A stretch of 11,213 nucleotides of DNA, taken from positions 1-11,213 of the forward strand of contig JBFFSH010000084.1 of the NCBI GenBank assembly GCA_041572575.1. Reading direction: 5' to 3'. Position numbers and translations under genes: made by a program. The notes under the pieces are model-generated. The model saw only the letters and a program-made list of their open reading frames with translations. It was not told where the DNA came from and did not search any database. Each line of letters opens with the position of its first letter. Position 1 is the stretch's first letter. This DNA is from Thermodesulfobacteriota bacterium. GTDB lineage: Bacteria > Desulfobacterota_D > UBA1144 > Nemesobacterales > N074bin48. Positions 1 to 11,213 of this stretch are shown here, piece by piece.

Positions 1-60
1 AACTTCTGCATGTCTTAAATATCTTATTATCTGCTCTGGTGTGTAACGCTTTCTGGGCAT
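1..60 (-). CDS. IS3-family transposase OrfA, N-terminal part (partial, not in ORF track)
   Basis: Translates MPRKRYTPEQIIRYLRHAEV, typical of IS3 OrfA N-termini (RKR-x-TPEQII-x-x-LR-x-AE). AGGAGG lies 8 nt upstream. Confidence 0.85.
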   Translation of the reverse strand, partial: MPRKRYTPEQIIRYLRHAEV

Positions 61-139
61 TTCCCTTGCCTCCTATTCATAGGGTTTATTACCTAAAATT
101 CTAACTTATAATCTGGTACTATTATATGGGGCAAGGTCA
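1..139 (-). mobile_element. IS3-family (IS407-group-like) insertion sequence, left end; continues beyond window start
   Basis: The minus strand from 139 reads TGACCTTGCCCCATATAATAGTACCAG, a 5'-TG IS3-type terminus resembling IS407-group TGACCTGCCCC ends. It is followed by RBS AGGAGG (74-69) and an OrfA-type transposase start at 60. Confidence 0.85.
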
Positions 140-544
140 GGAAGAATAGGATGTTTTTTAGTTGGTGATGACTACGGAACCCCTTCTAATCTACCTTTTG
201 CAATGGCATTTCCCGGAGGTTCACCTCCCACATATATTACAGTTCACCCCACTCAGGTATATGAATCCTTAATTATGCTTGGAGTATTTACAATACTATG
301 GAAGTTCCGTAAATCACTTCCACATGTTGGCATGCTAAGCTCATTAGGTTTCGTTCTTATTGGTATGGAAAGATTTTTTATTGAGTTCATTAGGGTTACT
401 ACTCCAAGTATTATTCCTGGACTAAGTATGGCTCAGCTTATGTCATTAGCAATTTTAGCAGCTGGTCTAATTAAGATTATACAGATCCAAAGAAATTCTA
501 ATCCCCTTGGTTTAGATTTTTCGGTTAAAAGTGAAAAGTCATGA
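140..544 (+). pseudogene. lgt: Prolipoprotein diacylglyceryl transferase, 3' half, truncated by the IS3 insertion
   Basis: The frame of ORF 203..544 extends upstream as GRIGCFLVGDDYGTPSNLPFAMAFP (Lgt signature), with HPTQVYE and ERFFIEFIR motifs further on. Homology starts at 140, right after the IS end, and there is an in-frame TAG at 80-82. Confidence 0.88.
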
Positions 545-842: not shown

Positions 843-1508
843 ATGGGTAGAATTAGATTTTTCATGATTTTTCTTAGTTTTATTTTAGTTTTTATCATTT
901 GCTTTTTTGTAGCTAATAAGTTTGGCCATACTCAAGCGCCGTGTTGTGGAGGGGGATGGACTGATCAGGACAATATGGATAAGATGCATGATATGATGAG
1001 TGGACGGCTGCCGCCCGGAATCGAGCCAGAGGATTTGCCTAAACCTGATAGTAAAGGAGCTAAACTTCTAGTACGGTACTGTACTCAATGCCATAATCTA
1101 TCCAGTCCATCCATGCATAGTTCGGAGGAATGGCCAACAGTCACCCAGAGAATGTTCAATCGATTGTCATGGATGTCTGGCATGAGAGAGGAATGGATGG
1201 GTATGATGTGGATGAAAGCACCTACACCTGAAGAAAAAAGAGAAATCGTAGCCTATTTAAAGGAATATTCCTTAAAGTCCATTGCGTCTGATATAATTCC
1301 ATTCCCAGAATCGCCAGGAGCAATTTCTTTTAAGAATACCTGCTCCCAGTGCCATGCATTACCTGATCCCAAAATCCATACTGCCGAAGAATGGCCTGCA
1401 GTTGTAGAGAGAATGAAAGTTAATATGAAGATTATGGAAAAGCCGGTGATAACCGACCAAGAAAAGGAAAAGATAGTTACATATCTAGGCAAACATGCAA
1501 AACAGTAG
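843..1508 (+). CDS. Exported/membrane-anchored diheme cytochrome c with two tandem homologous heme domains and Met-rich linkers
   Basis: N-terminal hydrophobic segment; CTQCH (1080-1094) and CSQCH (1341-1355). Both halves share P-x-P-x-S-x-GA...CxQCH-x-L-x-x-P-x-x-H-x-x-EEWP-x-V-x-x-RM...EK-x-x-IV-x-YL. ATG843 is preferred over TTG837 because of its spacing from the G-rich RBS at 827-834. Confidence 0.88.
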   Translation: MGRIRFFMIFLSFILVFIICFFVANKFGHTQAPCCGGGWTDQDNMDKMHDMMSGRLPPGIEPEDLPKPDSKGAKLLVRYCTQCHNLSSPSMHSSEEWPTVTQRMFNRLSWMSGMREEWMGMMWMKAPTPEEKREIVAYLKEYSLKSIASDIIPFPESPGAISFKNTCSQCHALPDPKIHTAEEWPAVVERMKVNMKIMEKPVITDQEKEKIVTYLGKHAKQ

Positions 1509-1958: not shown

Positions 1959-3299
1959 TTAATTATTCTGAAAAGTTTTGATCGGTTGTTTTCCCTTTTG
2001 TATGTTTATCTTTGGTAATTGAATGAGTGTGGGTGTGGTAATTCTTCCGGTTACAGTGAGTATTATCTGACCCGTTTTTAGTAAGTTAATATAATCTTTT
2101 TCTTCTTGGTCAAGATTCATCATCGTTGCTGTTTCTAGTATGTCTTTTCCGTTTCCGAGGTTGAAGGTGATTTTGGTGTTGGTGTTGGCTTTGATGCTGT
2201 TGCTGAGTTTGGTTGGTTCCTGATCGATTATTATGATTGACTCACCGTACTCTCGTATTTGTCTCAGACAGGTTTCCATAATGGTTTCTACTCCTTCAGT
2301 TCTCTCCTTTTTCTCGTTTAGGATGTGGTGGGCTTCTTCAATTATGATTGCGTGCTTGAACGTTTCTCTGTGTGGTTCTGTTTTTCGGTATTCGTAGATC
2401 CATAGGATTAGTGCTTCGGTTAGGAAGGTTTTGTCTGCATCTGATAGGGTATCGAGTTCTAAGACCATGTTATTGTTTAGTAGTTCATTAGGGTCTGTCT
2501 TTGTTCTTGTATTAAGTACTGCCCCTAAGCCGAAGTCAAAACATAAGCTTTCGAGTACTCTGATGCATGAAGCTTTCCATAGTCCCATTCTGCCAAATAG
2601 TTTTTTCCTTCGGATGTAGTTGAGTACTTCTTCCATTAGAGGCGGGTCTCTTGGATTGTTAGAGAAGTAGTGATGTTTTTCATATACAAACGTAAGGGCT
2701 TCTCTTAGTAAGAATTCTACTCCTTCGCCTACAAAGTATGCGTGTTTTAATACGTCAACGAGTTTCATTAGCCATTCGCCTACTTCTGTTTCTGGTGGTG
2801 GGATGAGGGGATTGAAATAGAATGGAGAAGTTTTCTTTGCAACAGTATAGACTTTTAGGTTATGGAATTGTGGCAGTTGCTTTAAATCTCTGTAGTTTCT
2901 TTTCCAGTCAAAGACAAGGAAAGGTTTACTATGCTTTTGTAATTGAATCAGGATATTGAATGAAAGGTTTGTTTTTCCGGCACCTGTCATGCCAACTATA
3001 AGTATGTGTTTTATCCATTCGTCCTCTCTTAATCCAAATGAACAAAAATTATCTCCTGGTGGATATATTACTGTTCCTAGTTGATATTTCCCATAACAAT
3101 CGCTCGGTGTTGGAGGGTCAAGATGTATCTTCTTCTGATAATCTTTCCCAGATTGTTGATATAATAAGATATCTATAAGTTCATCAGCTTCATCACGTTC
3201 CTTTCCTTCTGCACTTAGATAAAAGAGCCACTTCTGTCTAGTCTGAGAATCAATTGGGGATAGCTTACGAAGCTTTTCTTCTGTGTGTGGATTAGTCAT
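1959..3299 (-). CDS. HerA/FtsK-superfamily (DUF87/VirB4/coupling-protein-like) P-loop ATPase
   Basis: KHILIVGMTGAGKT (Walker A), LVFDWK, FNPL, IIIEEAHH (Walker B), LRQIREYGESIIIIDQEP (arginine finger and Q motif), ANTNTKITF. Confidence 0.9.
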   Translation of the reverse strand: MTNPHTEEKLRKLSPIDSQTRQKWLFYLSAEGKERDEADELIDILLYQQSGKDYQKKIHLDPPTPSDCYGKYQLGTVIYPPGDNFCSFGLREDEWIKHILIVGMTGAGKTNLSFNILIQLQKHSKPFLVFDWKRNYRDLKQLPQFHNLKVYTVAKKTSPFYFNPLIPPPETEVGEWLMKLVDVLKHAYFVGEGVEFLLREALTFVYEKHHYFSNNPRDPPLMEEVLNYIRRKKLFGRMGLWKASCIRVLESLCFDFGLGAVLNTRTKTDPNELLNNNMVLELDTLSDADKTFLTEALILWIYEYRKTEPHRETFKHAIIIEEAHHILNEKKERTEGVETIMETCLRQIREYGESIIIIDQEPTKLSNSIKANTNTKITFNLGNGKDILETATMMNLDQEEKDYINLLKTGQIILTVTGRITTPTLIQLPKINIQKGKQPIKTFQNN

Positions 3300-3319
3300 T
3301 TGTTCTTTTTAATCTGGTT

Positions 3320-3661
3320 TTAGTATTCTGTTTTGAGGATCATGACGTTGTTAACGCAATAGAATGAGAAGTAGGTGAGTGGGAAGTCTGTATAGTGTAT
3401 GTGTTGTTTTATTTTATATGGTTTGTCTGCGTCTTCTTTCATTGTTATCTCTGCGGATTTGTCTTGCTTTTTGTTAAACTCCCAGAACTGAAATGGAAGG
3501 TATCTGTATTTGTGTTGGTAGCTTCCTACGAGGTCGATGAGCCAGTAAGAATTAGCTTTTTCCGCTAAGTGTTGGATTCCATCAGTATAGAGGAGTCCGG
3601 TGAAGTTTCGGTAGTATCTTTCTGTTCCAGTGAATTGTTGAAGTTCTTCTTCTAGTCCCAT
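3320..3661 (-). CDS. DUF6876-like protein of mobile elements
   Basis: LQQFTGTERYYR...LLYTDGIQHLAEKANSYWLID...FQFW...QHIHYTDFPL...VMILKTEY matches the recalled family pattern. It ends 20 nt upstream of the ATPase, so the two are likely co-transcribed. Confidence 0.75.
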   Translation of the reverse strand: MGLEEELQQFTGTERYYRNFTGLLYTDGIQHLAEKANSYWLIDLVGSYQHKYRYLPFQFWEFNKKQDKSAEITMKEDADKPYKIKQHIHYTDFPLTYFSFYCVNNVMILKTEY

Positions 3662-3724
3662 TGTAGTTTACTAAGTGGGTTATGGTTTTGGTGTAGAAAT
3701 ATTTTGTAGTGCATTAATGATTAT

Positions 3725-3816
3725 GATTTTGTAGTTCGTAAATTTTTCCCCTTCACGACGCTCCGCTGTTCTCGGGTCGGACAGGGTTGTCCTAAAAATT
3801 TATCGACTCCAAAATC
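3725..3816. repeat. Long imperfect inverted repeat (23-nt arms) enclosing a GC-rich structured core
   Basis: GATTTTGTAGTTCGTAAATTTTT (3725-3747) pairs with AAAAATTTATCGACTCCAAAATC (3794-3816). Inner hairpin GGACA-GGGT-TGTCC (3779-3792). Confidence 0.85.
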
Positions 3817-3831
3817 TTGGGTCTGCTTTGA

Positions 3832-3848
3832 GAGCTTAGAGTAAGCTC
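3832..3848. repeat. Perfect 7-bp inverted repeat (possible operator)
   Basis: GAGCTTA-GAG-TAAGCTC, 35 nt upstream of ATG3883. Confidence 0.6.
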
Positions 3849-3882
3849 CGATTAAGTAATAAATTATTTGAGGTGTTGTGAA

Positions 3883-4119
3883 ATGAGTAAACCAGTTAAG
3901 AAGTTAGTAAGTGGAAGTGTATCGGCAAGTGTCTTCTTGAACGAAGTGAAGACTGCAAATGGAGTTGTTGAGAGACCTTCTGTTGTCGTGCAACGGTATT
4001 ATAAAGACCGTGAGGGTAAGGATAGCTATGCACAGAGTTTTAGAACTGAAGACTTGCCACGTGTATCTGTTCTTCTTAAGAAGGTTTTTGAGGAGTATGA
4101 TTTGGAGGTTAAACAATGA
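3883..4119 (+). CDS. Small protein, putative PC4/Whirly-like ssDNA-binding family (paralogue 1)
   Basis: SD GAGGTG (3870-3875) supports ATG3883 rather than TTG3868. Pattern P-x5-GSVSASVF...SV-x3-RYYKDREG...SFR-x-x-DLP...L-x-x-x-F is shared with 4399..4647. The fold assignment is inference. Confidence 0.7.
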   Translation: MSKPVKKLVSGSVSASVFLNEVKTANGVVERPSVVVQRYYKDREGKDSYAQSFRTEDLPRVSVLLKKVFEEYDLEVKQ

Positions 4120-4220
4120 TCTCCTCCTTAATATTTTCTTTTTTTATTTTTTCTTTTGTGTTGGCTGTTGTTTGTGTTGGCTCTGATGTGGTTTTTAAGC
4201 AGAGACTATTACAGGTTCAG

Positions 4221-4322
4221 ATGGAGTATGAGTTGGATCATTGTCCTACTCCTTGGAAATGTCCTGAGAAGTGTTATTTGAATTGTAAAGGATGCTTATT
4301 AAAGAATACTGGCAATAACTGA
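4221..4322 (+). CDS. Small Cys-rich putative metal-binding peptide (33 aa)
   Basis: MEYELDHCPTPWKCPEKCYLNCKGCLLKNTGNN, C-x5-C-x3-C-x3-C-x2-C. TATA-like TTTTTAAG at 4192-4199 (-29). The longer start at 4116 runs through a T-tract. Confidence 0.45.
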   Translation: MEYELDHCPTPWKCPEKCYLNCKGCLLKNTGNN

Positions 4323-4348
4323 TCTTTTTGTTTTTTCATTACAAAGTT

Positions 4349-4390
4349 TTTATATAGGTGTTAGGTGTTAAAGGGTATAAATGTGAGGTG
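4349..4390 (+). promoter_or_regulatory. Archaeal-type TATA box plus GAGGTG Shine-Dalgarno for ORF 4399
   Basis: ACAAAG-TT-TTTATATA (TATA 4349-4356); GAGGTG at 4385-4390, 8 nt before ATG4399. Confidence 0.5.
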
Positions 4391-4398
4391 GTTGATGT

Positions 4399-4647
4399 AT
4401 GGCAGATGAAACTGTTCCTTTGATTCGGATTCGGAGAGGTAGTGTGTTTGCTAGTATTTATGAGCGGGAGTTTCAGGGTGAGGATGGTCTTGTCAGGTAT
4501 CGGAGTGTTACTTTGTATCGGATGTATAAGGATCGGGATGGGGTTTTGAAGCCGACTTCGAGTTTTAGGGAGTTTGATATTCCTAATGCTGTTTGGGTGT
4601 TGCAGGAGGCGTTTGATTATTTGGGTTCTATTGAGTCTAGAAGTTGA
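4399..4647 (+). CDS. Small protein, putative PC4/Whirly-like ssDNA-binding family (paralogue 2)
   Basis: PLIRIRRGSVFASIYE...RSVTLYRMYKDRDGVLKPTSSFREFDIPNAVWVLQEAFDY is clearly homologous to 3883..4119. Good SD. Confidence 0.72.
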   Translation: MADETVPLIRIRRGSVFASIYEREFQGEDGLVRYRSVTLYRMYKDRDGVLKPTSSFREFDIPNAVWVLQEAFDYLGSIESRS

Positions 4648-4788
4648 ATTACTAGTGTTGGTGCTTATATATTTTTTGGTTCTTTTTTTTTTGGATTTGC
4701 TTTGTTTTATTTTGGTAACTTTCCATTTTCATATATACGGATGTAATAAATATAAAAATTCTTATTTTGAGAAAGTTACAGTGAATGC

Positions 4789-4818
4789 GGGCGGGCTGTG
4801 GGTTGCCTCAGCCCGCCC
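4789..4818. repeat. GC-rich perfect 10-bp-stem hairpin in an AT-rich intergenic region
   Basis: GGGCGGGCTG-N10-CAGCCCGCCC, flanked by direct repeats CTTATTTTGAG at 4761-4771 and 4840-4850. Confidence 0.85.
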
Positions 4819-5188
4819 TGATAAGCTACTGATTTAGTGCTTATTTTGAGTGTTTAATAATAGATTAGATATTATAGATTGTTTTTTAAATTTGATTGAA
4901 TTTAGCGGTTATTTGGTATTGTTTGGGGTTGATATTGATTTGTAGATATTAGTACTGATTTTATTATTGTTTTTATTGTTTTATAGTAGAAAGAAAGGTG
5001 AAACAATGAAACAATAAAACAACAGTAATTACAGGTACTTACGATGATTTGAAGATTCTTATAGATTTTGAGCTTATTTACCTTCTATATAGAAAATAAT
5101 TCTATCAAAACAGTCACAATTTTGGGATAATCTCAGGGTTATTTTTAATACCATCTTTTAAGACATAAACCATCTTTGTTATCTTGTA

Positions 5189-5386
5189 ATGGTTCGTATA
5201 CGTACTGTACAGATAAGACTTACAAGAGATCAATATGAAAAGATCAAGCATTATTCCAAAGTGAGAGGTTTCAATACTATCTCATCTTATATGAGGTATG
5301 TGGCTTTAGATCAGGCCACTTTTTTAGAGCAAAAATTGAGAGAGATGCTTACCAGTATTTGGGGTTCATCTAAGAAGAAAAAATAA
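5189..5386 (+). CDS. Ribbon-helix-helix DNA-binding protein (MobC/CopG-like)
   Basis: RTVQIRLT (beta ribbon), RDQYEKIKHYSKVRG (helix A), TISSYMRYVALD (helix B). Confidence 0.75.
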   Translation: MVRIRTVQIRLTRDQYEKIKHYSKVRGFNTISSYMRYVALDQATFLEQKLREMLTSIWGSSKKKK

Positions 5387-5399
5387 CAGATAAACGTTT

Positions 5400-5948
5400 A
5401 TGGGTTTATATGGTTCGTTGGACATGCTTCTTGCATACTCACCATCTCTAACCAAGAAAAAAGTAACTGAAGCGACAAAAAGCGGTGATGGTGATAGTGA
5501 ACAAGATAGTTTGGAAACTTTACTCTCTGATAAGCTTAACAGCTTCAAGACTATCTTAACCGATATAACATCAGACATACAAAAACGTAAGCTGCTGTCT
5601 GAGGATATCATATATCGAATCTATCAGCATTACATTTACCTAAAGACTCACTTGATGGAGCTTTATACAGTACAGATAGGAAGCAGTTTTACTTTTGATT
5701 TCAGGAGGTCTAGTCTGGAAAAACAGCTTGATACTCTCAAACATGAAAAACGGGCAGAACAAGTTATTTGTAGTCAGGACATCGCAAAATTAAAAAAAGA
5801 ATTCAGGGAATGGTTCAAGAAATATTCCGACTTACTGCAAAGAGTAAAGATTATCATTCCCGACGTCAATTCTAATAATAAGAAAGGTTTAAATAGAAAC
5901 TATAATACTATACAAAATAAGTTCTTTATTGCCAACGGAAAAACGTGA
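5400..5948 (+). CDS. Hypothetical alpha-helical/coiled-coil protein
   Basis: 182-aa ORF starting 13 nt after the RHH gene, with heptad-like segments (LEKQLDTLKHEK, IAKLKKEFREW). No family recognised. Confidence 0.65.
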   Translation: MGLYGSLDMLLAYSPSLTKKKVTEATKSGDGDSEQDSLETLLSDKLNSFKTILTDITSDIQKRKLLSEDIIYRIYQHYIYLKTHLMELYTVQIGSSFTFDFRRSSLEKQLDTLKHEKRAEQVICSQDIAKLKKEFREWFKKYSDLLQRVKIIIPDVNSNNKKGLNRNYNTIQNKFFIANGKT

Positions 5949-6010
5949 GATGGTTTAGAATGTGATATAGTCTCCATGTCCTCCGCATACTACCTTTGAG
6001 TTTAAACCAC

Positions 6011-6026
6011 CAGTAAAGTTTATATA
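6011..6026 (+). promoter_or_regulatory. Archaeal-type BRE/TATA for a probably leaderless recombinase mRNA
   Basis: CAGTAAAG-TTTATATA; the TATA starts 31 nt before ATG6050 and there is no SD in between. Confidence 0.55.
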
Positions 6027-6049
6027 TAAGCTTTGTATTCTATTTTAGT

Positions 6050-7342
6050 ATGGTAGAGAATGATATTTATGATAGTAAACGGAAATATGAGAATTTTTTA
6101 GCTAGCTTGGATGATTTCTTAATACAACCTCAGAATTCAGGAAGACGGGGTTTTAGGAAGTATTATTGTAAGTTTGAGGATAATCTTGCTTATTTCAGAC
6201 TGCTACATGATAAGTTTTCTGCGAGGGATTTGAGTTATGTGAGAAGGCTTAGGTTGTTTAATTCTTTAAAACTAATTGTTTTCAGTATTGAAAAGAATTT
6301 AGAAGAAGCAACTAGAGATGATGTAGACCAGGTAATGACTTATATGCACACAGTATGTAAATCCGTTAAGACTAAAAAAGACTTCATTGTGGATATCAAG
6401 CACATCTGGAAGCTGTTATTCCCTGAAAAGGATGAGAAAGGGAGGGTAGATGAAGATATCGTTCCTTATCCTGTTAGGCATTTAAAGAGCAAGGATGTAG
6501 ATAGGAGTTTAGAGAAGCGAAGAAATGATAAACTCACTGTAGAGGAATTTGAAAAGGTTGTTCAGGCGTTCAGCCAAGATGTGCGATTGCAGGCGTTTCT
6601 TACCCTCAGTTTTGAATCATTAGGTAGACCCCAGGAAATACTTTTTACCAAGATTAAGGATGTGGAATTGTCTGATAATTATGGGAAGATTTGGATATCA
6701 GAACATGGAAAAGAAGGAACAGGGTTTTTAGAAGTTATAGACAGTTATCCTTACGTTGCTGAATGGCTGAACGATCATCCGCTCAAGAACAACCCAGAAG
6801 CTTTTTTCTTTTTAAATCTGGGCAGCCACGGACGATATGAACAGCTTAAACCTCATACTATCAACAAACATCTTCGTAATAAACTAAAAGCATTAAGAAT
6901 CAACAAACCTGTAACCTGCTATTCTCTTAAAAGAAGTGGAGTTACTTACCGAAGATTGCGGGGAGATTCAGACCTGCAAATCCAGCACACCGCCAGATGG
7001 ACAAGCACAAAACAATTAAAATCCTATGACCTAAGCCAGCACGACGACACATTCAAATTGGAACTCATTAAACGAGGGATCATACAAGAAAAAGCGTCTA
7101 AGAATCTCAAAATCCTTTCTAACAAATGCATGTTCTGTGAGACAGTAAATGGCATTGGAATATCAAATTGCAAAACTTGTAAACGTCCGCTCGATAGAAA
7201 AAAGATTGCTGATGAAATACAGCAAAAGGACAGTCGTATTGATGAACTTGAGCAGCAAATTACTAACATGCCAGGCCAGATACTTAAGCTTTTAAAAGAA
7301 AATCCACTCCTTATTAAAGAAGCACTCAAGATAGAAAACTAA
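6050..7342 (+). CDS. Divergent tyrosine recombinase with C-terminal Zn ribbon and coiled coil (archaeal-type architecture)
   Basis: LT-x-EE, ESLGRPQE (catalytic R), HGKEG (K), YSLKR in place of HxLRH, HTARW (W for H), KSY (Tyr nucleophile), then C-x2-C-x10-C-x2-C-x-RPL and a coiled coil. Confidence 0.85.
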   Translation: MVENDIYDSKRKYENFLASLDDFLIQPQNSGRRGFRKYYCKFEDNLAYFRLLHDKFSARDLSYVRRLRLFNSLKLIVFSIEKNLEEATRDDVDQVMTYMHTVCKSVKTKKDFIVDIKHIWKLLFPEKDEKGRVDEDIVPYPVRHLKSKDVDRSLEKRRNDKLTVEEFEKVVQAFSQDVRLQAFLTLSFESLGRPQEILFTKIKDVELSDNYGKIWISEHGKEGTGFLEVIDSYPYVAEWLNDHPLKNNPEAFFFLNLGSHGRYEQLKPHTINKHLRNKLKALRINKPVTCYSLKRSGVTYRRLRGDSDLQIQHTARWTSTKQLKSYDLSQHDDTFKLELIKRGIIQEKASKNLKILSNKCMFCETVNGIGISNCKTCKRPLDRKKIADEIQQKDSRIDELEQQITNMPGQILKLLKENPLLIKEALKIEN

Positions 7343-7408
7343 GATAGCATCAACCACATTCTACATTGCACTACAAATATTAAATAATCATTTTGCGGTT
7401 TGTGTTTC

Positions 7409-7522
7409 ATGACCCCAAAGGAACTAGCAATACAGTACCCACGCTGGATGTTAGAACTTGTACTAGAAATACAAGAACAAGATATGGGTAAAAGCCATCC
7501 AGGAGAAAACTCTCCAACTTAA
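7409..7522 (+). CDS. Putative 37-aa small protein (not in ORF track)
   Basis: MTPKELAIQYPRWMLELVLEIQEQDMGKSHPGENSPT; TATTAAAT at 7378-7385 (-31). Confidence 0.3.
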   Translation: MTPKELAIQYPRWMLELVLEIQEQDMGKSHPGENSPT

Positions 7523-7574
7523 CAATAATTAACCTGGCTCTATATTGTTTGTTATTGTATACGAAAATAATGGG

Positions 7575-7603
7575 TTGACTTTGAATTCTAAAATTAATAC
7601 AAT
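7575..7603 (+). promoter_or_regulatory. Bacterial sigma70 promoter
   Basis: TTGACT (7575-7580)-N17-TACAAT (7598-7603), upstream of the lipoprotein pseudogene. Confidence 0.65.
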
Positions 7604-7670
7604 CGAATTAATGTAATCGCAGTTTGAGTATATTATTTAAGTATGGAGGAAACTAGACACGAAAACTCTA

Positions 7671-8212
7671 ATGCATTATAGGGGGGGGCAGGTAGTCTTA
7701 CAATATCTTTATTATGTTTTTTTATAGTTGGATTACATATAGGGTGTAGTTCTAATGGTAGTGATGTTGGTTTAAACGATAATGGGGAAGTAAATTCTGA
7801 GGTTCAAATTTCTATTCCACAAGAATTAATAGACTTATTTATTGATGGATCTACTGGGAATGCTATATATACAGATCGATTTACTGAAACTACTGGTAAT
7901 AGTAATGTTACTATAGAGAGCGCATAATACTGTTTGAGTAGTCCTGATGATCCAGATTTTGTTGAAATATGTGTAGATGTAGATGCTCAAGAATTAATTG
8001 AAGATAATGGTTCAAACATTATTCCTGCTGGTGGAATTTTAGATTATCAGCAGACTTATTTTGCTTTAGAAGGTAGAACTATTGAAAGGACAAATACATA
8101 CATGTTGAGGGATAATAACAATAATATATTAATGCTTCAGTCTAAAGTAAGTTTAGATGCCAATGATTTAGAAAGTTTAGTGTTTGAAGTAATGAGTCCC
8201 GCACAAAACTAG
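7671..8212 (+). pseudogene. Putative bacterial lipoprotein, disrupted (G8-tract frameshift or TAG7679, plus premature TAA7925)
   Basis: The frame of ORF 7934..8212 is open from 7682 (GGAGSLTISLLCFFIVGLHIG-CSSNGS...) except for TAA at 7925-7927. ATG7671 joins this frame if G8 (7681-7688) were G9. The lipobox is imperfect. Confidence 0.6.
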
Positions 8213-8320
8213 CTAAGTTAGTTTTTCTTAACCTATACTATCTATATCATTATAATTCTTGGATTATTTAGTCTGCCAATTTATATTAATTACTATTTGT
8301 ATGCTTAGCTTTTGTTAATT

Positions 8321-8647
8321 TTAATATAATATTTTTTCTAATTCATAGATGATGTAGAGTTTTTGTTGGTGTTCGATTTTGCCGCATTTGAGTTGTTCAT
8401 AGCTCCATTCTTTGGTTTGGAATTGTCTTCTTAAAGATACCGGTAAGAGTAGGTATTTGGCGTAGTTGGACCTGCTTCCGGTTTTTATGATGGTGGCTTT
8501 TTCTGTGATAGTTTCTGGTGAGAAGATTTTGAGGGTTTCTAAGTCTCCGTTGAGTTGTTTGTATTCGTTTATGTGTATGTGGGCTTTTACTTCGATTGTG
8601 TCTTGATCATCATGTGTTCTTATATTTTTGATTAACGTGTCTATCAC
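8321..8647 (-). CDS. Hypothetical beta-rich protein, possibly AbrB/MazE-like swapped-hairpin DNA-binding
   Basis: 108-aa ORF; ATIIKTG...KYLLLPVSLRRQF resembles the AbrB G-x-x-x-x-IP-x-x-IR motif. The GTG start is uncertain. Confidence 0.5.
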   Translation of the reverse strand: MIDTLIKNIRTHDDQDTIEVKAHIHINEYKQLNGDLETLKIFSPETITEKATIIKTGSRSNYAKYLLLPVSLRRQFQTKEWSYEQLKCGKIEHQQKLYIIYELEKILY

Positions 8648-8700
8648 CCTGCCCTATTATTACAAGATCATATATGGATAAGTAATATTGTTTATAATAA

Positions 8701-9099
8701 TTATGTTTCATCATTTATTTCGTAGAACACTTTATACCCATCTGTGCTTCTTTGTAATAATCCTTTATCCATAAGAAGAGAGAAGTATTCATTGGCCTTG
8801 TTCTTTCCGATTCGTGTTTCTTTAACAAGTTTGGAGAAATAGACTTTTTTGTATTGTTTCGTTTCGTAGTCGTATTGGTTTAAGAGGTATTGTATGATTT
8901 TTTGGTGTGGATAACGAATGTCAGGGTCAGAATAGATCTGTTCTAAAATTATATTCTTTGATTGTAAGTTTTTCTGTTTTGTTTTTTTATCGTTGCTAAG
9001 TGCTTTGTTAAAGAATTGAAATGTTCTCCTACCCTGTTCTTGTAGTTGGTCTAGTTGTTGTTCTATTGATTGCAATTTTTCTAGAATAGGATCATCCAT
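8701..9099 (-). CDS. Winged-helix DNA-binding protein with N-terminal coiled coil
   Basis: LEKLQSIEQQLDQLQE coiled coil; HQKIIQYL...FSKLVKETRIGKNKANEYFSLLMDKGLLQRSTDGYKVFYEI wHTH pattern. Confidence 0.72.
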   Translation of the reverse strand: MDDPILEKLQSIEQQLDQLQEQGRRTFQFFNKALSNDKKTKQKNLQSKNIILEQIYSDPDIRYPHQKIIQYLLNQYDYETKQYKKVYFSKLVKETRIGKNKANEYFSLLMDKGLLQRSTDGYKVFYEINDET

Positions 9100-9224
9100 T
9101 TTTGTTTTTACTTCTGAGTAGATACTGGTGCATTACCTTGCTTTCCTATTTATAAAGTCTATGTCGATAAACGGTTCTGTCTTGGATAGTGGGGTTTTTA
9201 TATTCTGGAATTAGTCATTATTCC

Positions 9225-9935
9225 ATGAACTACTATTCACTACTCGAAAGGGAGGACAAAGAAGTAAGGGTATATAAACAAGAGCCTAAATCCATTTACT
9301 TAATGGTTCACGGTGAATATCACTCTCCTTTAATCTTAAAAGAAAAACCGAAGAAACAAGAAAACAAGACTGAATCGATAGATGATATAGTTAAGCCATC
9401 AGAAAAACAACTGCTCAACAGAGAACTTCTTGTAGAAGACCATCCACACTACTTAGAAAACAAAGACTTGCTCAAGGATTACCCAGACCTCATGCAAAAA
9501 AACTTCAACATGTATGAGCTAAAAATAACAAAAGAAAAAAATGGAGACTACCAAGTACAAAGCTTATCAAGCCCCAGATCAGTATATGAAACCTTCAAAC
9601 AACGGGCAGAACAACAAGATAGAGAAGAACTACTCGCTATATTCGTAAACACCAAGAATGAACTCATAGGTTATCAGCAAGTAGCCGTAGGCACTCTATC
9701 CTATGTTGTCACAAGCCCACGAGAGATTATTAAATCGGCTATCCTTGCTAATGCAGCCAGCATACTACTCATGCACAACCATCCCTCCGGTGACCCAACA
9801 CCCTCAAAAGAAGACATCGAACTTACCAATATAATTAAGAATGCTTGTAAGCTCATGGATATACCCTTCCTCGACCATGTAATCATCGGAGACAACGGTA
9901 GATACACTTCTCTAAGACAGCTTGGGAAAATTTAA
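9225..9935 (+). CDS. radC: RadC-like JAB/MPN-domain protein with atypical N-terminal extension
   Basis: E (DREE)...GTL...PREI...HNHPSGDPTPSKED...LDHVIIG. ATG9225 (TTTTTATA at 9195-9202) is preferred over GTG9189. The JAB-like part starts near ATG9510. Confidence 0.9.
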   Translation: MNYYSLLEREDKEVRVYKQEPKSIYLMVHGEYHSPLILKEKPKKQENKTESIDDIVKPSEKQLLNRELLVEDHPHYLENKDLLKDYPDLMQKNFNMYELKITKEKNGDYQVQSLSSPRSVYETFKQRAEQQDREELLAIFVNTKNELIGYQQVAVGTLSYVVTSPREIIKSAILANAASILLMHNHPSGDPTPSKEDIELTNIIKNACKLMDIPFLDHVIIGDNGRYTSLRQLGKI

Positions 9936-9936
9936 C

Positions 9937-11031
9937 TTATGATATTTTTAATTTATCGGTTTTAACCTCTTCGTTTTTGAGCCAAGGTAATTTCTCTACA
10001 GTACCAGCCAAGTGTTCAGGTGTCAGATGAGCATAGATCATAGTAGTTGTGATGGTGGAGTGTCCGAGTAATTGCTGAACGCTTTTTAGGTCAACTCCTG
10101 ACATAATTAGATGGGAGGCGAATGTATGTCTGAGTGTGTGGATTGTGACATTTTTCAAATTTGCTTTTTTACATGCACGTACAAATGATTTTCTTATTGA
10201 CTCCACAGAGCTTCCGTCTTCATTGCAGAATACATAGTTTTTCTGGCAGGGTAGGCGGGGATGAATTATCTCTTTGAATGTTTTTGTGCAGTTCTGAGCA
10301 ATATAAAATTTGTTTAACCAGTGGAGTTTTTGTTCGACTTCATGGTTCATGGGAACATACCTTATGGTATTTGTCTTTGTTGCAATCACCCTGATTCTGT
10401 TGCGCTTGAAGTCGATATCATCAAACCGTAGTCTTCTACGTTCACCATCACGCAATCCTGTATTTAATAAAACAACAATGATTGCTTCAAGCCAGGGTGG
10501 GGCGGCAAGCAATAAAGAAGTGACTTCTTCCCTTGTAAGGAAGCGAGGTTCCCTTTTCTCGACTCTCAATAACTTAACACCACTAAAAGGACTGCGATGC
10601 AAGTAATGCCACTCAACACACTTATTAAACATATTAGATAAACACCGCAGTTCGATGTTAACCGTGCGAGGAGAAACTTTTTCCTTAGTACGTACTCTCT
10701 TATACCGCTCGATATCGTGATTAGTAATATGAGGAAGCTGCATAGTACCAAAAAACTTTCTTAGACGCTTTAAGCTTACAACATCCCGTTCATACGTGCG
10801 CTTTGCTTTATTAGTCTGTGAATAAGCAAGATACTCATCAGCAAAATCATCGAACAAAACTTGTTTCTCTTCGAGTATCCCATAGTTCTTTTTTTGCAAC
10901 TCGACTTCCAAATGTCTCAAAACATTCTTAGCTTCAGACTTGGAAACCTTGCCGAGCTTCTTCCATATCCTCCTGCCTCCTATCGCAAAGACAGCGTACC
11001 AAATACCTCTTTTATTCTGTATGGATGCCAT
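9937..11031 (-). CDS. Phage-type tyrosine integrase (arm-binding, core-binding and catalytic domains)
   Basis: TGLRDGE (R), ATKT (K), HTLRH, LLGH, MIYAH (Y) are all intact. SD GGAGGTG; adjacent to the tRNA 3' end. Confidence 0.95.
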   Translation of the reverse strand: MASIQNKRGIWYAVFAIGGRRIWKKLGKVSKSEAKNVLRHLEVELQKKNYGILEEKQVLFDDFADEYLAYSQTNKAKRTYERDVVSLKRLRKFFGTMQLPHITNHDIERYKRVRTKEKVSPRTVNIELRCLSNMFNKCVEWHYLHRSPFSGVKLLRVEKREPRFLTREEVTSLLLAAPPWLEAIIVVLLNTGLRDGERRRLRFDDIDFKRNRIRVIATKTNTIRYVPMNHEVEQKLHWLNKFYIAQNCTKTFKEIIHPRLPCQKNYVFCNEDGSSVESIRKSFVRACKKANLKNVTIHTLRHTFASHLIMSGVDLKSVQQLLGHSTITTTMIYAHLTPEHLAGTVEKLPWLKNEEVKTDKLKIS

Positions 11032-11152: not shown

Positions 11153-11160
11153 AATAAGTT

Positions 11161-11213
11161 CGCGCCCGAGAGGATTCGAACCTCTGACCTACGGATTAGA
11201 AGTCCGTTGCTCT
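11161..11213 (-). tRNA. tRNA-Arg(UCU), 3' portion (cut by window edge); probable att site
   Basis: Minus strand AGAGCA-ACGGA-CTTCTAA-TCCGT-AGGTC-AGAGG-TTCGAAT-CCTCT-CGGGCGC-G; anticodon TCT; no encoded CCA. Confidence 0.95.

What the first reader, a model, noticed from the sequence alone, without database searches (positions are those of the whole stretch)
4190..9230. Archaeal-style transcription and translation signals inside a bacterial island: possible cross-domain transfer
Seen: TATA-like octamers at nearly constant distance before SD-less ATGs: TTTTTAAG -29 (ATG4221), TTTTAAGA -33 (5189), TTTATATA -31 with a purine-rich BRE-like flank (6050), TATTAAAT -31 (7409), TTTTTATA -30 (9225). There is also TTTATATA plus GAGGTG for 4399, and hairpin-less oligo-T runs after 4119, 4322 and 4647. 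Known: this is the layout of leaderless archaeal mRNAs. The flanks (lgt, sigma70 promoter, bacterial-type tRNA-Arg) are bacterial. Inference: the module came from an archaeon, possibly DPANN/Woesearchaeota-like. The AT-rich background makes single matches weak; the positional consistency is the signal.
Basis: partly seen in the sequence, partly recalled or inferred. Interest (0 to 1): 0.75.

Follow-up and report, generated by a model that had tools for sequence, protein, structure and literature searches.

The report
Archaeal mobile element living in bacteria
A marine sediment bacterium carries, inside one of its mobile DNA islands, an 8-kb gene block whose integrase, docking site and strongest promoter are of the type used by tiny Woesearchaeota archaea; related blocks sit in several other bacterial phyla and are conserved by selection, so this element family likely crossed from archaea into bacteria more than once and likely keeps spreading there.

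Summary
The archaeal link is real; the promoter evidence is only partly right. The window is a Dadabacteria-type contig, assembled as one unitig in two other studies; the host has no TBP or TFB. Integrase 6050-7342 belongs to a Woesearchaeales tRNA-targeting family. It keeps an unused 11-bp core matching an archaeal tRNA-Leu end and the best archaeal BRE-TATA score in the genome. Of the other named boxes, 4399 is strong, 7409 and 9225 are weak, and 4221 and 5189 are background. The block 1959-9935 is joined to a bacterial tRNA-Arg integrase. A sibling copy shows dN/dS 0.03-0.16 and conserved boxes. The module recurs in Nitrospinota, Acidobacteriota and Thermodesulfobacteriota; bacterial integrase copies need 7-8 label changes on the tree, and one origin is rejected. 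Against ongoing archaeal cycling: none of 53 archaeal integrase loci carries the module. I found no description in print; this scan noted similar archaeal-type integrase cassettes before on other bacterial DNA.

The parts
1..140 (.). Multi-copy 140-bp repeat that ends the contig and cuts lgt (IS-end-like; label inferred)
   Evidence: 93-100% copies on 11 other contigs, mostly at contig ends; high depth
141..544 (+). C-terminal part of a bacterial lgt (island cargo)
   Evidence: PF01790 positions 118-239, E 1e-23; two other lgt copies in G000
843..1508 (+). Bacterial diheme cytochrome c (island cargo)
   Evidence: 64% homologue beside lgt in same-order genome G015
1959..3299 (-). HerA/VirB4-like ATPase, 446 aa, Walker A GMTGAGKT and B IIIEEAH intact; left end of module
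   Evidence: PF01935, motifs; sibling homology ends at 1981; dN/dS 0.055
3320..3661 (-). DUF6876 protein
   Evidence: PF21781 E 8e-36; 0 of 151 Woesearchaeales; in bacterial module loci L038, L069
3725..3816 (.). Conserved non-coding stem-loop, candidate origin or nick site (function inferred)
   Evidence: inverted repeat I4; found in L145, L148, L038; 4 of 23 pairs with a compensatory change in 4 sequences; 0 of 401 Woesearchaeales
3883..4119 (+). Small protein, paralogue of 4399; PC4-like ssDNA-binding fold is a weak lead
   Evidence: 123 of 151 Woesearchaeales; atlas clusters also viral and Planctomycetota
4221..4322 (+). 33-aa Cys-rich peptide, real gene
   Evidence: homologues from the same Met in L038, L043, L165; dN/dS 0.16
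4341..4354 (+). Archaeal-type BRE-TATA for 4399 (leadered, SD GAGGTG at 4385)
   Evidence: score 10.3, top 0.4% of host; 14/14 kept in sibling, spacer 27/44
4399..4647 (+). Small four-strand plus helix protein; weak PC4-family fold matches
   Evidence: model pLDDT 77.5; Foldseek PC4 rows E 0.05-0.2; no clear VIA match; dN/dS 0.03
5189..5386 (+). Ribbon-helix-helix protein (NikA/MobC-like)
   Evidence: PF21983 E 6e-5, below cut-off; in L025, L038, L043, L060, L065, L148, L165
5400..5948 (+). Coiled-coil-type partner gene; its relatives precede the ATPase in Woesearchaeales
   Evidence: 27-30% hits upstream of the ATPase in 8 archaeal loci; dN/dS 0.12
5977..5987 (+). Unused attP core, TGTCCTCCGCA = 3' end of an archaeal tRNA-Leu
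   Evidence: identical 11-mer at the same 75-nt distance in L020; unique in G000, no host tRNA-Leu ends so; kept in sibling
6013..6026 (+). Archaeal-type BRE-TATA, leaderless spacing (-31)
   Evidence: best score of all G000 genes of 60 aa or more with TATA at -33..-28 (12.4; next 8.8); 14/14 in sibling, spacer 14/23
6050..7342 (+). Woesearchaeales-family tyrosine integrase (IntA), catalytic R193, K221, R295, Y326 present, C-terminal Cys4
   Evidence: PF00589; invariant columns; trees; dN/dS 0.05
7372..7385 (+). Weaker BRE-TATA-like box before the 7409 peptide
   Evidence: top 5%; 12/14 kept in sibling where the spacer is 7/23
7409..7522 (+). 37-aa ORF, poorly conserved
   Evidence: 56% over 25 aa in sibling
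7643..8212 (+). Broken lipoprotein-like gene with two in-frame stops, a later insertion or loss
   Evidence: six-frame read; 7307-8321 has no counterpart in the sibling alignment; no family hit
8321..8647 (-). Unknown protein of a Woesearchaeales-distributed family
   Evidence: 21 of 151 Woesearchaeales at 24-33%; 36-41% in Nitrospinota modules
8701..9099 (-). Winged-helix protein
   Evidence: weak TrmB/Sso10a hits; 42-44% in L043, L165
9225..9935 (+). RadC-like JAB protein; right end of module; domain of origin unresolved
   Evidence: PF04002; 51 of 151 Woesearchaeales 30-48% on the domain; named hits bacterial and Methanosarcinaceae 41-49%
9937..11031 (-). Bacterial island integrase (IntB)
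   Evidence: 54% to an integrase beside tRNA-Arg(TCT) in same-order G030; dN/dS 0.03
11159..11206 (-). 48-bp att repeat in the 3' half of bacterial tRNA-Arg(TCT); second copy on G000:C37:825-872
   Evidence: loose ends match the C37 sides

Best explanation
The block 1959-9935 is a mobile element with a Woesearchaeales-type integrase, archaeal tRNA docking core and archaeal-type promoter boxes, joined to a bacterial tRNA-Arg island integrase in a Dadabacteria-type chromosome; it likely left an archaeal tRNA gene as an excised circle, likely was carried into the bacterium with the help of its ATPase core, and likely now spreads among bacteria on host-type islands. Shown: physical linkage, the integrase family, the unused att core, two strong boxes, purifying selection on all module genes, and recurrence in other phyla. 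Inferred: (1) the order 5400 gene - att core - integrase is that of an excised circle opened elsewhere; (2) the ATPase, 5400 partner, RHH, two PC4-like proteins and the 3725-3816 stem-loop form a DNA processing and transfer core; (3) IntB, not IntA, made the insertion seen here; (4) without TBP or TFB the boxes cannot act as archaeal promoters in this cell, so they are likely kept because they double as att-arm or regulator sites or as AT-rich sigma70 start sites; (5) fresh archaeal input recurs, since different archaeal-type integrases occupy the same slot in different copies.
For: One unitig spans both junctions in two studies. Host has bacterial rpoB and 16S and no TBP or TFB at 96% completeness; a same-genus valS cluster is named Dadabacteria. 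IntA: 52 of 67 GTDB loci have archaeal titles; 9 of 151 Woesearchaeales versus 0 of 119 other genomes of the host phylum. A tRNA T-arm lies upstream in 39 of 50 archaeal loci and 2 of 14 bacterial-titled loci, one of them a likely misbinned contig; the bacterial copies keep only the tRNA-end core. Sibling L145 has the same IntB-JAB junction, dS 0.2-1.2 and dN/dS 0.03-0.16. IntA GC3 follows flank GC in 12 bacterial loci (rho 0.89). Window, Nitrospinota and Hyphomicrobiales IntA form a 97/90 clade. The short-ATPase clade holds 7 bacterial and 2 unassigned rows. The same layout occurs beside a urease operon (L165) and after gltX-tRNA-bacterial integrase (L065). L165 and L148 carry other tyrosine integrases in the IntA slot, L165 with a box scoring 12 at -30.
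Against: Box conservation (40 of 42 versus 48 of 90 spacer bases) at exact archaeal spacing is not explained by any tested bacterial function; the window boxes are poor sigma70 promoters (one search lists none over 6013 or 4341). Module dS (IntA 1.2, ATPase 1.08) exceeds flank cargo dS (0.10-0.40), so part of the divergence may predate capture or come from recombination. No relaxase, pilus or replication protein was recognised, so transfer is inferred. GC3 also tracks flank GC in archaeal loci (rho 0.79), and flanks may include element DNA. Several bacterial-titled contigs are short or lack a diagnostic neighbour (L025, L060, L068, L071).
Confidence: 0.55

Rival explanations
1. Two-domain shuttle: the composite element excises with IntB, passes to a Woesearchaeales cell in contact with the bacterium, integrates with IntA at tRNA-Leu and is transcribed from the BRE-TATA boxes, then returns; selection in archaea keeps boxes, att core and IntA intact.
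For: Explains in one step the conserved boxes, the intact catalytic residues and an att core with no host target, selection after the IntB fusion, 7-8 label changes, integrase swapping, and archaeal L081 whose IntA has GC3 0.65 in 0.35-GC DNA and is sister to the Acidobacteria copy. A preprint reports protein clusters shared by Nanobdellota, Omnitrophota and 10-15-kb circles.
Against: 0 of 53 archaeal IntA loci carry any other module gene or an IntB-like integrase (only 24 of them are 15 kb or longer); stem-loop in 0 of 401 Woesearchaeales; short ATPase in 1 of 301 plus one fragment and 0 of 139 phylum-wide.
Confidence: 0.25
2. Dead-end passengers: archaeal circles are captured now and then by bacterial islands and are silent; all selection happened earlier, in an unsampled archaeal reservoir.
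For: No TBP or TFB; the att core is unused; module dS above flank dS; ATPase remnants in same-genus G001 and in L151, L152 show decay; boxes are lost in L047, L065, L068, L069, L073, L075.
Against: Two copies share one IntB junction yet differ at dS up to 1.2 with no stop codon in 12 aligned genes; IntA frames are full length in 14 of 15 bacterial-titled loci; GC3 is host-like up to 0.76.
Confidence: 0.17
3. Artefact: chimeric assembly or an archaeal contig misbinned or misjoined to bacterial DNA.
For: MAG contig bounded by repeats; L049 shows that misbinning occurs in this family.
Against: Single unitigs with flat depth in two studies; an independent sibling with the same junction; copies on 0.3-6.5-Mb bacterial records.
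Confidence: 0.02

Closest known systems
Archaeal tRNA-targeting cryptic integrated elements (Krupovic et al. 2019, PMC6563490; passages seen)
   Same: Tyrosine integrase that targets tRNA 3' ends with a short att core (8-26 bp for most there; 11 bp here); small regulators; no capsid or full conjugation set.
   Different: Here the cassette is in a bacterium, its att core is unused, and a second, bacterial integrase made the insertion.
Bacterial tRNA-targeting genomic islands with a tyrosine integrase (general knowledge)
   Same: IntB beside tRNA-Arg(TCT), 48-bp repeat at both ends, bacterial cargo.
   Different: The island core is an archaeal-type element with archaeal promoter boxes.
Cross-domain protein clusters on 10-15-kb circles linking Nanobdellota and Omnitrophota (bioRxiv 10.64898/2026.05.20.726742; passages and section 11 seen)
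   Same: DPANN-bacteria exchange through small mobile elements; one IntA locus here is in an Omnitrophota contig.
HerA/FtsK capture neighbourhoods (Rakesh et al. 2024, PMC10853773; passages seen)
   Same: HerA/FtsK ATPase in a mobile neighbourhood with wHTH and tyrosine recombinase genes.
   Different: No Orc/CDC6, restriction nuclease, D5 helicase or Dnd gene in this window.
Archaeal integrons as platforms for cross-domain transfer (PMC9668308; search listing only)
   Same: Integrase-linked DNA exchange between domains.
   Different: IntA scores far below the integron-integrase cut-off (19 vs 265 bits); no cassette array seen.

Membership tests
Archaeal tRNA-targeting integrated element (Woesearchaeales IntA family) | Tyrosine integrase with intact catalytic residues, of a family resident in archaea | tested here: met
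   R193, K221, R295, Y326 invariant; 52 of 67 loci archaeal-titled, 9 of 151 Woesearchaeales
Archaeal tRNA-targeting integrated element (Woesearchaeales IntA family) | att core equal to an archaeal tRNA 3' end next to the integrase | tested here: met
   11 of 11 identical at the same distance as in L020; rough chance 1e-4 over 50 loci and 21 offsets
Archaeal tRNA-targeting integrated element (Woesearchaeales IntA family) | Integrated by that integrase: intact tRNA at one end, direct repeat at the other | tested here: not met
   No tRNA or T-arm upstream; the 11-mer is unique in G000
Archaeal BRE-TATA core promoter | BRE plus TATA at about -30 from a leaderless ATG, above background | tested here: met
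   Met for 6050 (0 of 1400 host upstreams reach it) and, leadered, 4399; weak for 7409 and 9225; not met for 4221 and 5189
Archaeal BRE-TATA core promoter | TBP and TFB in the cell | tested here: not met
   0 matches in G000 (96% complete); controls ring in 4 archaea
Archaeal BRE-TATA core promoter | Transcription start at the ATG | not testable with these tools
   Only contigs were available for RNA runs
Bacterial tRNA-targeting genomic island | Host-type integrase beside a tRNA and a repeat of the tRNA 3' part at the far end | tested here: met
   IntB 54% to G030 integrase at tRNA-Arg(TCT); 48-bp copy on C37; the link between C84 and C37 is inferred, not assembled
Integrative conjugative element | Relaxase and mating-pore genes | tested here: inconclusive
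   Only a VirB4/HerA-like ATPase far below cut-offs and a weak NikA-like RHH; the rest of the island is on other contigs
Provirus | Capsid, portal or tail genes | tested here: not met
   No such PHROG match; no IntA or ATPase relatives in IMG/VR scans
PC4-like ssDNA-binding proteins (3883, 4399) | PC4 fold | tested here: inconclusive
   Foldseek PC4 rows at E 0.05-0.2 among unrelated rows; best VIA Z 6.9 to an unrelated chain

The most novel reading that the evidence does not exclude
A family of dual-integrase elements shuttles between Woesearchaeales and bacteria: a bacterial integrase docks it in a bacterial tRNA, an archaeal integrase with its own att core and TATA promoter docks it in an archaeal tRNA, so the bacterial carriers (Dadabacteria, Nitrospinota, Acidobacteriota, Desulfobacterota, Omnitrophota) mark the cells that Woesearchaeales physically contact, possibly their still unknown hosts.
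Probability: 0.25. Interest if true: 0.93.

Novelty: new variant of a known kind. Interest (0 to 1): 0.72.

Why it matters
Archaea-to-bacteria transfer is usually seen as single old genes. Here a whole mobile unit is caught with its archaeal docking site and promoter still readable, in several bacterial phyla, at least seven separate times on the integrase tree, and under selection after joining a bacterial integrase. It gives a concrete vehicle for DPANN-bacteria gene flow and a list of bacteria to test as partners of Woesearchaeales, which have no cultured isolates (PMC8421398, passages). It also poses a testable puzzle: why archaeal promoter boxes are conserved in a cell without TBP or TFB.

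Tried and rejected
Single-protein scan of genome contigs with IntA found nothing; the alignment did. IMG/VR scans with the IntA alignment, the ATPase and the stem-loop found nothing. PLSDB gave only 25-33% ATPase hits and one 23% integrase hit. Rfam found only the tRNA end and one chance match. PDB sequence search for 3883 was empty, and the atlas gave no family for 3883 or 5400. The AU test under the mixture model did not finish; the value given is from LG+G4 on a quick tree, and the strict-set AU did not finish. SD absence and oligo-T runs were rejected as evidence. The 4221 and 5189 boxes were rejected as above-background promoters although both are conserved in the sibling (14/14 inside an overlapping reading frame; 13/14). 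A host target for IntA was sought and not found. Other archaeal-like islands in G000 were not indicated: 16 other high box scores are scattered singly. RNA run X15 covers much of the window at low depth but is contigs only and may hold DNA, so it says nothing about expression. Run X6 was read only in part and is no evidence of absence. No complex prediction or representative-library search was run. One paper fetched under a wrong id was unrelated.

Full report
Setting. The window is the whole contig C84 of G000 (2.6 Mb, 37% GC, 96% complete). G000 has one bacterial rpoB and a bacterial 16S gene and no TBP or TFB, while both searches ring in the four archaeal controls. The valS cluster of the same-genus genome G001 is named Candidatus Dadabacteria. 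Of 24 listed runs, 14 DNA runs from 9 studies, mostly marine and sediment samples, hold 99-100% of the window's words; any of them may be the source. Two DNA runs from different studies each give one unitig over 111/112-11181 with flat depth and their own few SNPs. Both junctions are therefore real.

The observation. All named octamers are where stated. A BRE-TATA matrix trained on 414 archaeal non-integrase upstreams shows the archaeal -30 peak (0.20 of genes versus a flat 0.02-0.03 in 1400 host upstreams). Gene starts in both sets come from a crude first-ATG caller. The box before 6050 outscores all 1400 host upstreams and is the best in the genome; the one before 4399 is in the top 0.4%; 7409 and 9225 are at 5% and 12%; 4221 and 5189 are background. 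Ten module genes taken without selection give p 0.03. Missing SD sequences and T runs do not separate host from archaeal genes. So the positional signal rests on two, perhaps three, boxes.

The integrase cassette. ORF 6050-7342 is a tyrosine integrase with intact catalytic residues. It has 535 hits in the protein collection, and the four hits with a taxon name among the best 120 are DPANN or unspecified archaea. An alignment of 49 of these sequences (the window plus 48 hits) found 67 GTDB loci: 52 with archaeal titles and 15 with bacterial titles. Titles reading Methanosarcinales are likely Woesearchaeales, since G034 with such a title lies in that order. IntA is in 9 of 151 Woesearchaeales genomes and 0 of 119 other genomes of the host phylum. 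In archaea it follows a tRNA: a T-arm lies upstream in 39 of 50 loci, against 2 of 14 bacterial-titled loci; one of those two, L049, has a full archaeal-type tRNA-Leu and I count it as misbinned. The window keeps only the core, TGTCCTCCGCA at 5977-5987, identical to the tRNA-Leu end of L020 and at the same 75 nt from the ATG. It occurs once in G000 and no host tRNA-Leu ends that way. This is the signature of an unused attP.

Repeated entry. On a 66-row tree (65 of the 67 loci plus the window; L077 and L082 left out as too short), the 14 bacterial rows need 8 changes, at least 7 forced by starred branches, and are one group in 0 of 200 bootstrap trees. An AU test on a quick LG+G4 tree rejects one origin (p 7e-6); a strict set of 9 rows with bacterial neighbours or long contigs still needs 6 changes. 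The tree is unrooted; direction comes from the att core and promoter, not from the topology. The window groups with a Nitrospinota (63%) and a Hyphomicrobiales copy (97/90), sister to ten archaeal rows. Upstream boxes exceed the host 90th percentile in 37 of 50 archaeal and 7 of 14 bacterial-titled loci, including GC-rich ones.

The module. Genes 1959-9935 are an ATPase, DUF6876, two small paralogues, a Cys-rich peptide, an RHH protein, a coiled-coil-type gene, IntA, two unknown or wHTH genes and a JAB protein. Relatives in Woesearchaeales: 3883 in 123 of 151, 8321 in 21 of 151, the ATPase in 34 of 301, mostly a longer form at 26-36% preceded by a 5400-like gene, JAB domain in 51 of 151, DUF6876 in 0 of 151. 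The tallies include genomes flagged unpublished (G166, G155, G146). The 3883 family also has viral and Planctomycetota clusters. The assembled module, however, was seen only in bacterial or unassigned DNA: L043 and L165 (Nitrospinota; L165 beside a urease operon and with a different integrase behind a box scoring 12 at -30), L038 (Acidobacteriota), L065 (gltX, two tRNAs, a bacterial integrase, then IntA-5400-RHH-ATPase), L025 and L148. None of 53 archaeal IntA loci had another module gene, although only 24 are 15 kb or longer. The short ATPase clade holds 7 bacterial and 2 unassigned rows, with one Woesearchaeales 4.4-kb contig and one unassigned row just outside; it is in 3 of 120 Nitrospinota genomes, one as a fragment, and several cluster members lie on contigs of 4-7 Mb. 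A 92-bp stem-loop at 3725-3816 recurs in L145, L148 and L038 but in 0 of 401 Woesearchaeales.

The bacterial carrier. IntB (9937-11031) is 54% identical to an integrase beside tRNA-Arg(TCT) in a same-order genome. The last 48 bp of that tRNA are repeated on C37:825-872, so the island probably runs past window position 1; lgt and the cytochrome are then cargo. A sibling element (L145, L144; 84-90% nucleotide identity) has the same IntB-JAB junction and gene order, lacks 7307-8321 and has other bacterial cargo beyond the ATPase. Between the two copies dN/dS is 0.03-0.16 for 12 of 13 compared genes (7409 is saturated), with dS 0.2-1.2; four cargo genes give dS 0.10-0.40. The three stronger boxes keep 40 of 42 bases, their spacers 48 of 90; I chose these three after seeing the alignment.

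How it likely works. A Woesearchaeales element excised from a tRNA, entered a bacterium and was fixed by joining an IntB island. Its ATPase core is the best candidate for DNA handling and transfer, by family knowledge of HerA/VirB4 ATPases and RHH proteins; this is untested, and no relaxase was found. Selection after the fusion, host-like codon GC and multi-phylum bacterial clades argue that the family is active among bacteria (0.55). Conserved boxes, an att core with no host target and integrase swapping argue for continued passage through archaea (0.25), but archaeal copies of the module are missing from what I searched. Silent passengers (0.17) fit the lack of TBP but not the selection. In L043 a near-consensus sigma70 promoter (TTGAAA-16-TATAGT, read) overlies the box, one way such boxes could be co-opted; the window's boxes do not show this.

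Comparison and novelty. It works like an archaeal cryptic integrated element (PMC6563490, passages) nested in a bacterial tRNA island, but fails membership as an IntA-integrated element, because IntA did not make this insertion. The review of archaeal tyrosine recombinases (PMC8371274, passages) has no mention of DPANN or Nanoarchaeota. A preprint describes clusters shared by Nanobdellota, Omnitrophota and 10-15-kb circles without naming this family in the passages and section read; its supplements were closed and may bear on novelty. Eight searches for such an element returned no description. Earlier notes of this scan report the same kind of thing on other DNA; they are unchecked and are not counted as support. 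Verdict: real, a new variant of a known kind, interest 0.72.

Noticed in passing
window 1-140: 140-bp repeat found on 11 other G000 contigs, mostly at their ends; it cuts the lgt gene, so the rest of the island is not assembled.
   Followed up: partly
window 7643-8212: Lipoprotein-like gene broken by two in-frame stops, absent from the sibling; no family or homologue found.
   Followed up: partly
window 4786-4822: GC-rich hairpin in the long 4648-5188 intergenic region, conserved in the sibling; not found to match Rfam.
   Followed up: partly
L090:6887-7001 (G001:C1), L151:3849-3977, L152:375-509: Short remnants of the ATPase 3' part in a same-genus genome and two metagenome contigs, showing the element has decayed at other sites in this lineage.
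   Followed up: partly
L124 and L125 (G035, Nitrospinota): Two further ATPase-bearing blocks with ArdC, a large RHS-type gene and several strong BRE-TATA boxes next to a bacterial HU gene; this one genome holds at least three such elements.
   Followed up: partly
L081:7519-8244: Woesearchaeales-type locus whose IntA has GC3 0.65 in 0.35-GC DNA and is sister to the Acidobacteria copy; possible transfer back from a GC-rich bacterium, or from a GC-rich archaeon.
   Followed up: partly
L049: Contig titled Nomurabacteria carries a full archaeal-type tRNA-Leu and IntA; likely misbinned.
   Followed up: partly
L155-L162; window 3883-4119 and 4399-4647: The 3883/4399 family is a near-core, unannotated small protein of Woesearchaeales (123 of 151 genomes) with a possible PC4-like fold.
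   Followed up: partly
L167 (G000:C65:641-1888): A second IntB-like integrase (41%) beside tRNA-Leu(GAG), with no archaeal-like cargo in the part seen.
   Followed up: partly
L088 (G000:C37:1070-7910): A hydrogenase and hyp maturation cluster lies just outside the tRNA-Arg repeat.
   Followed up: no
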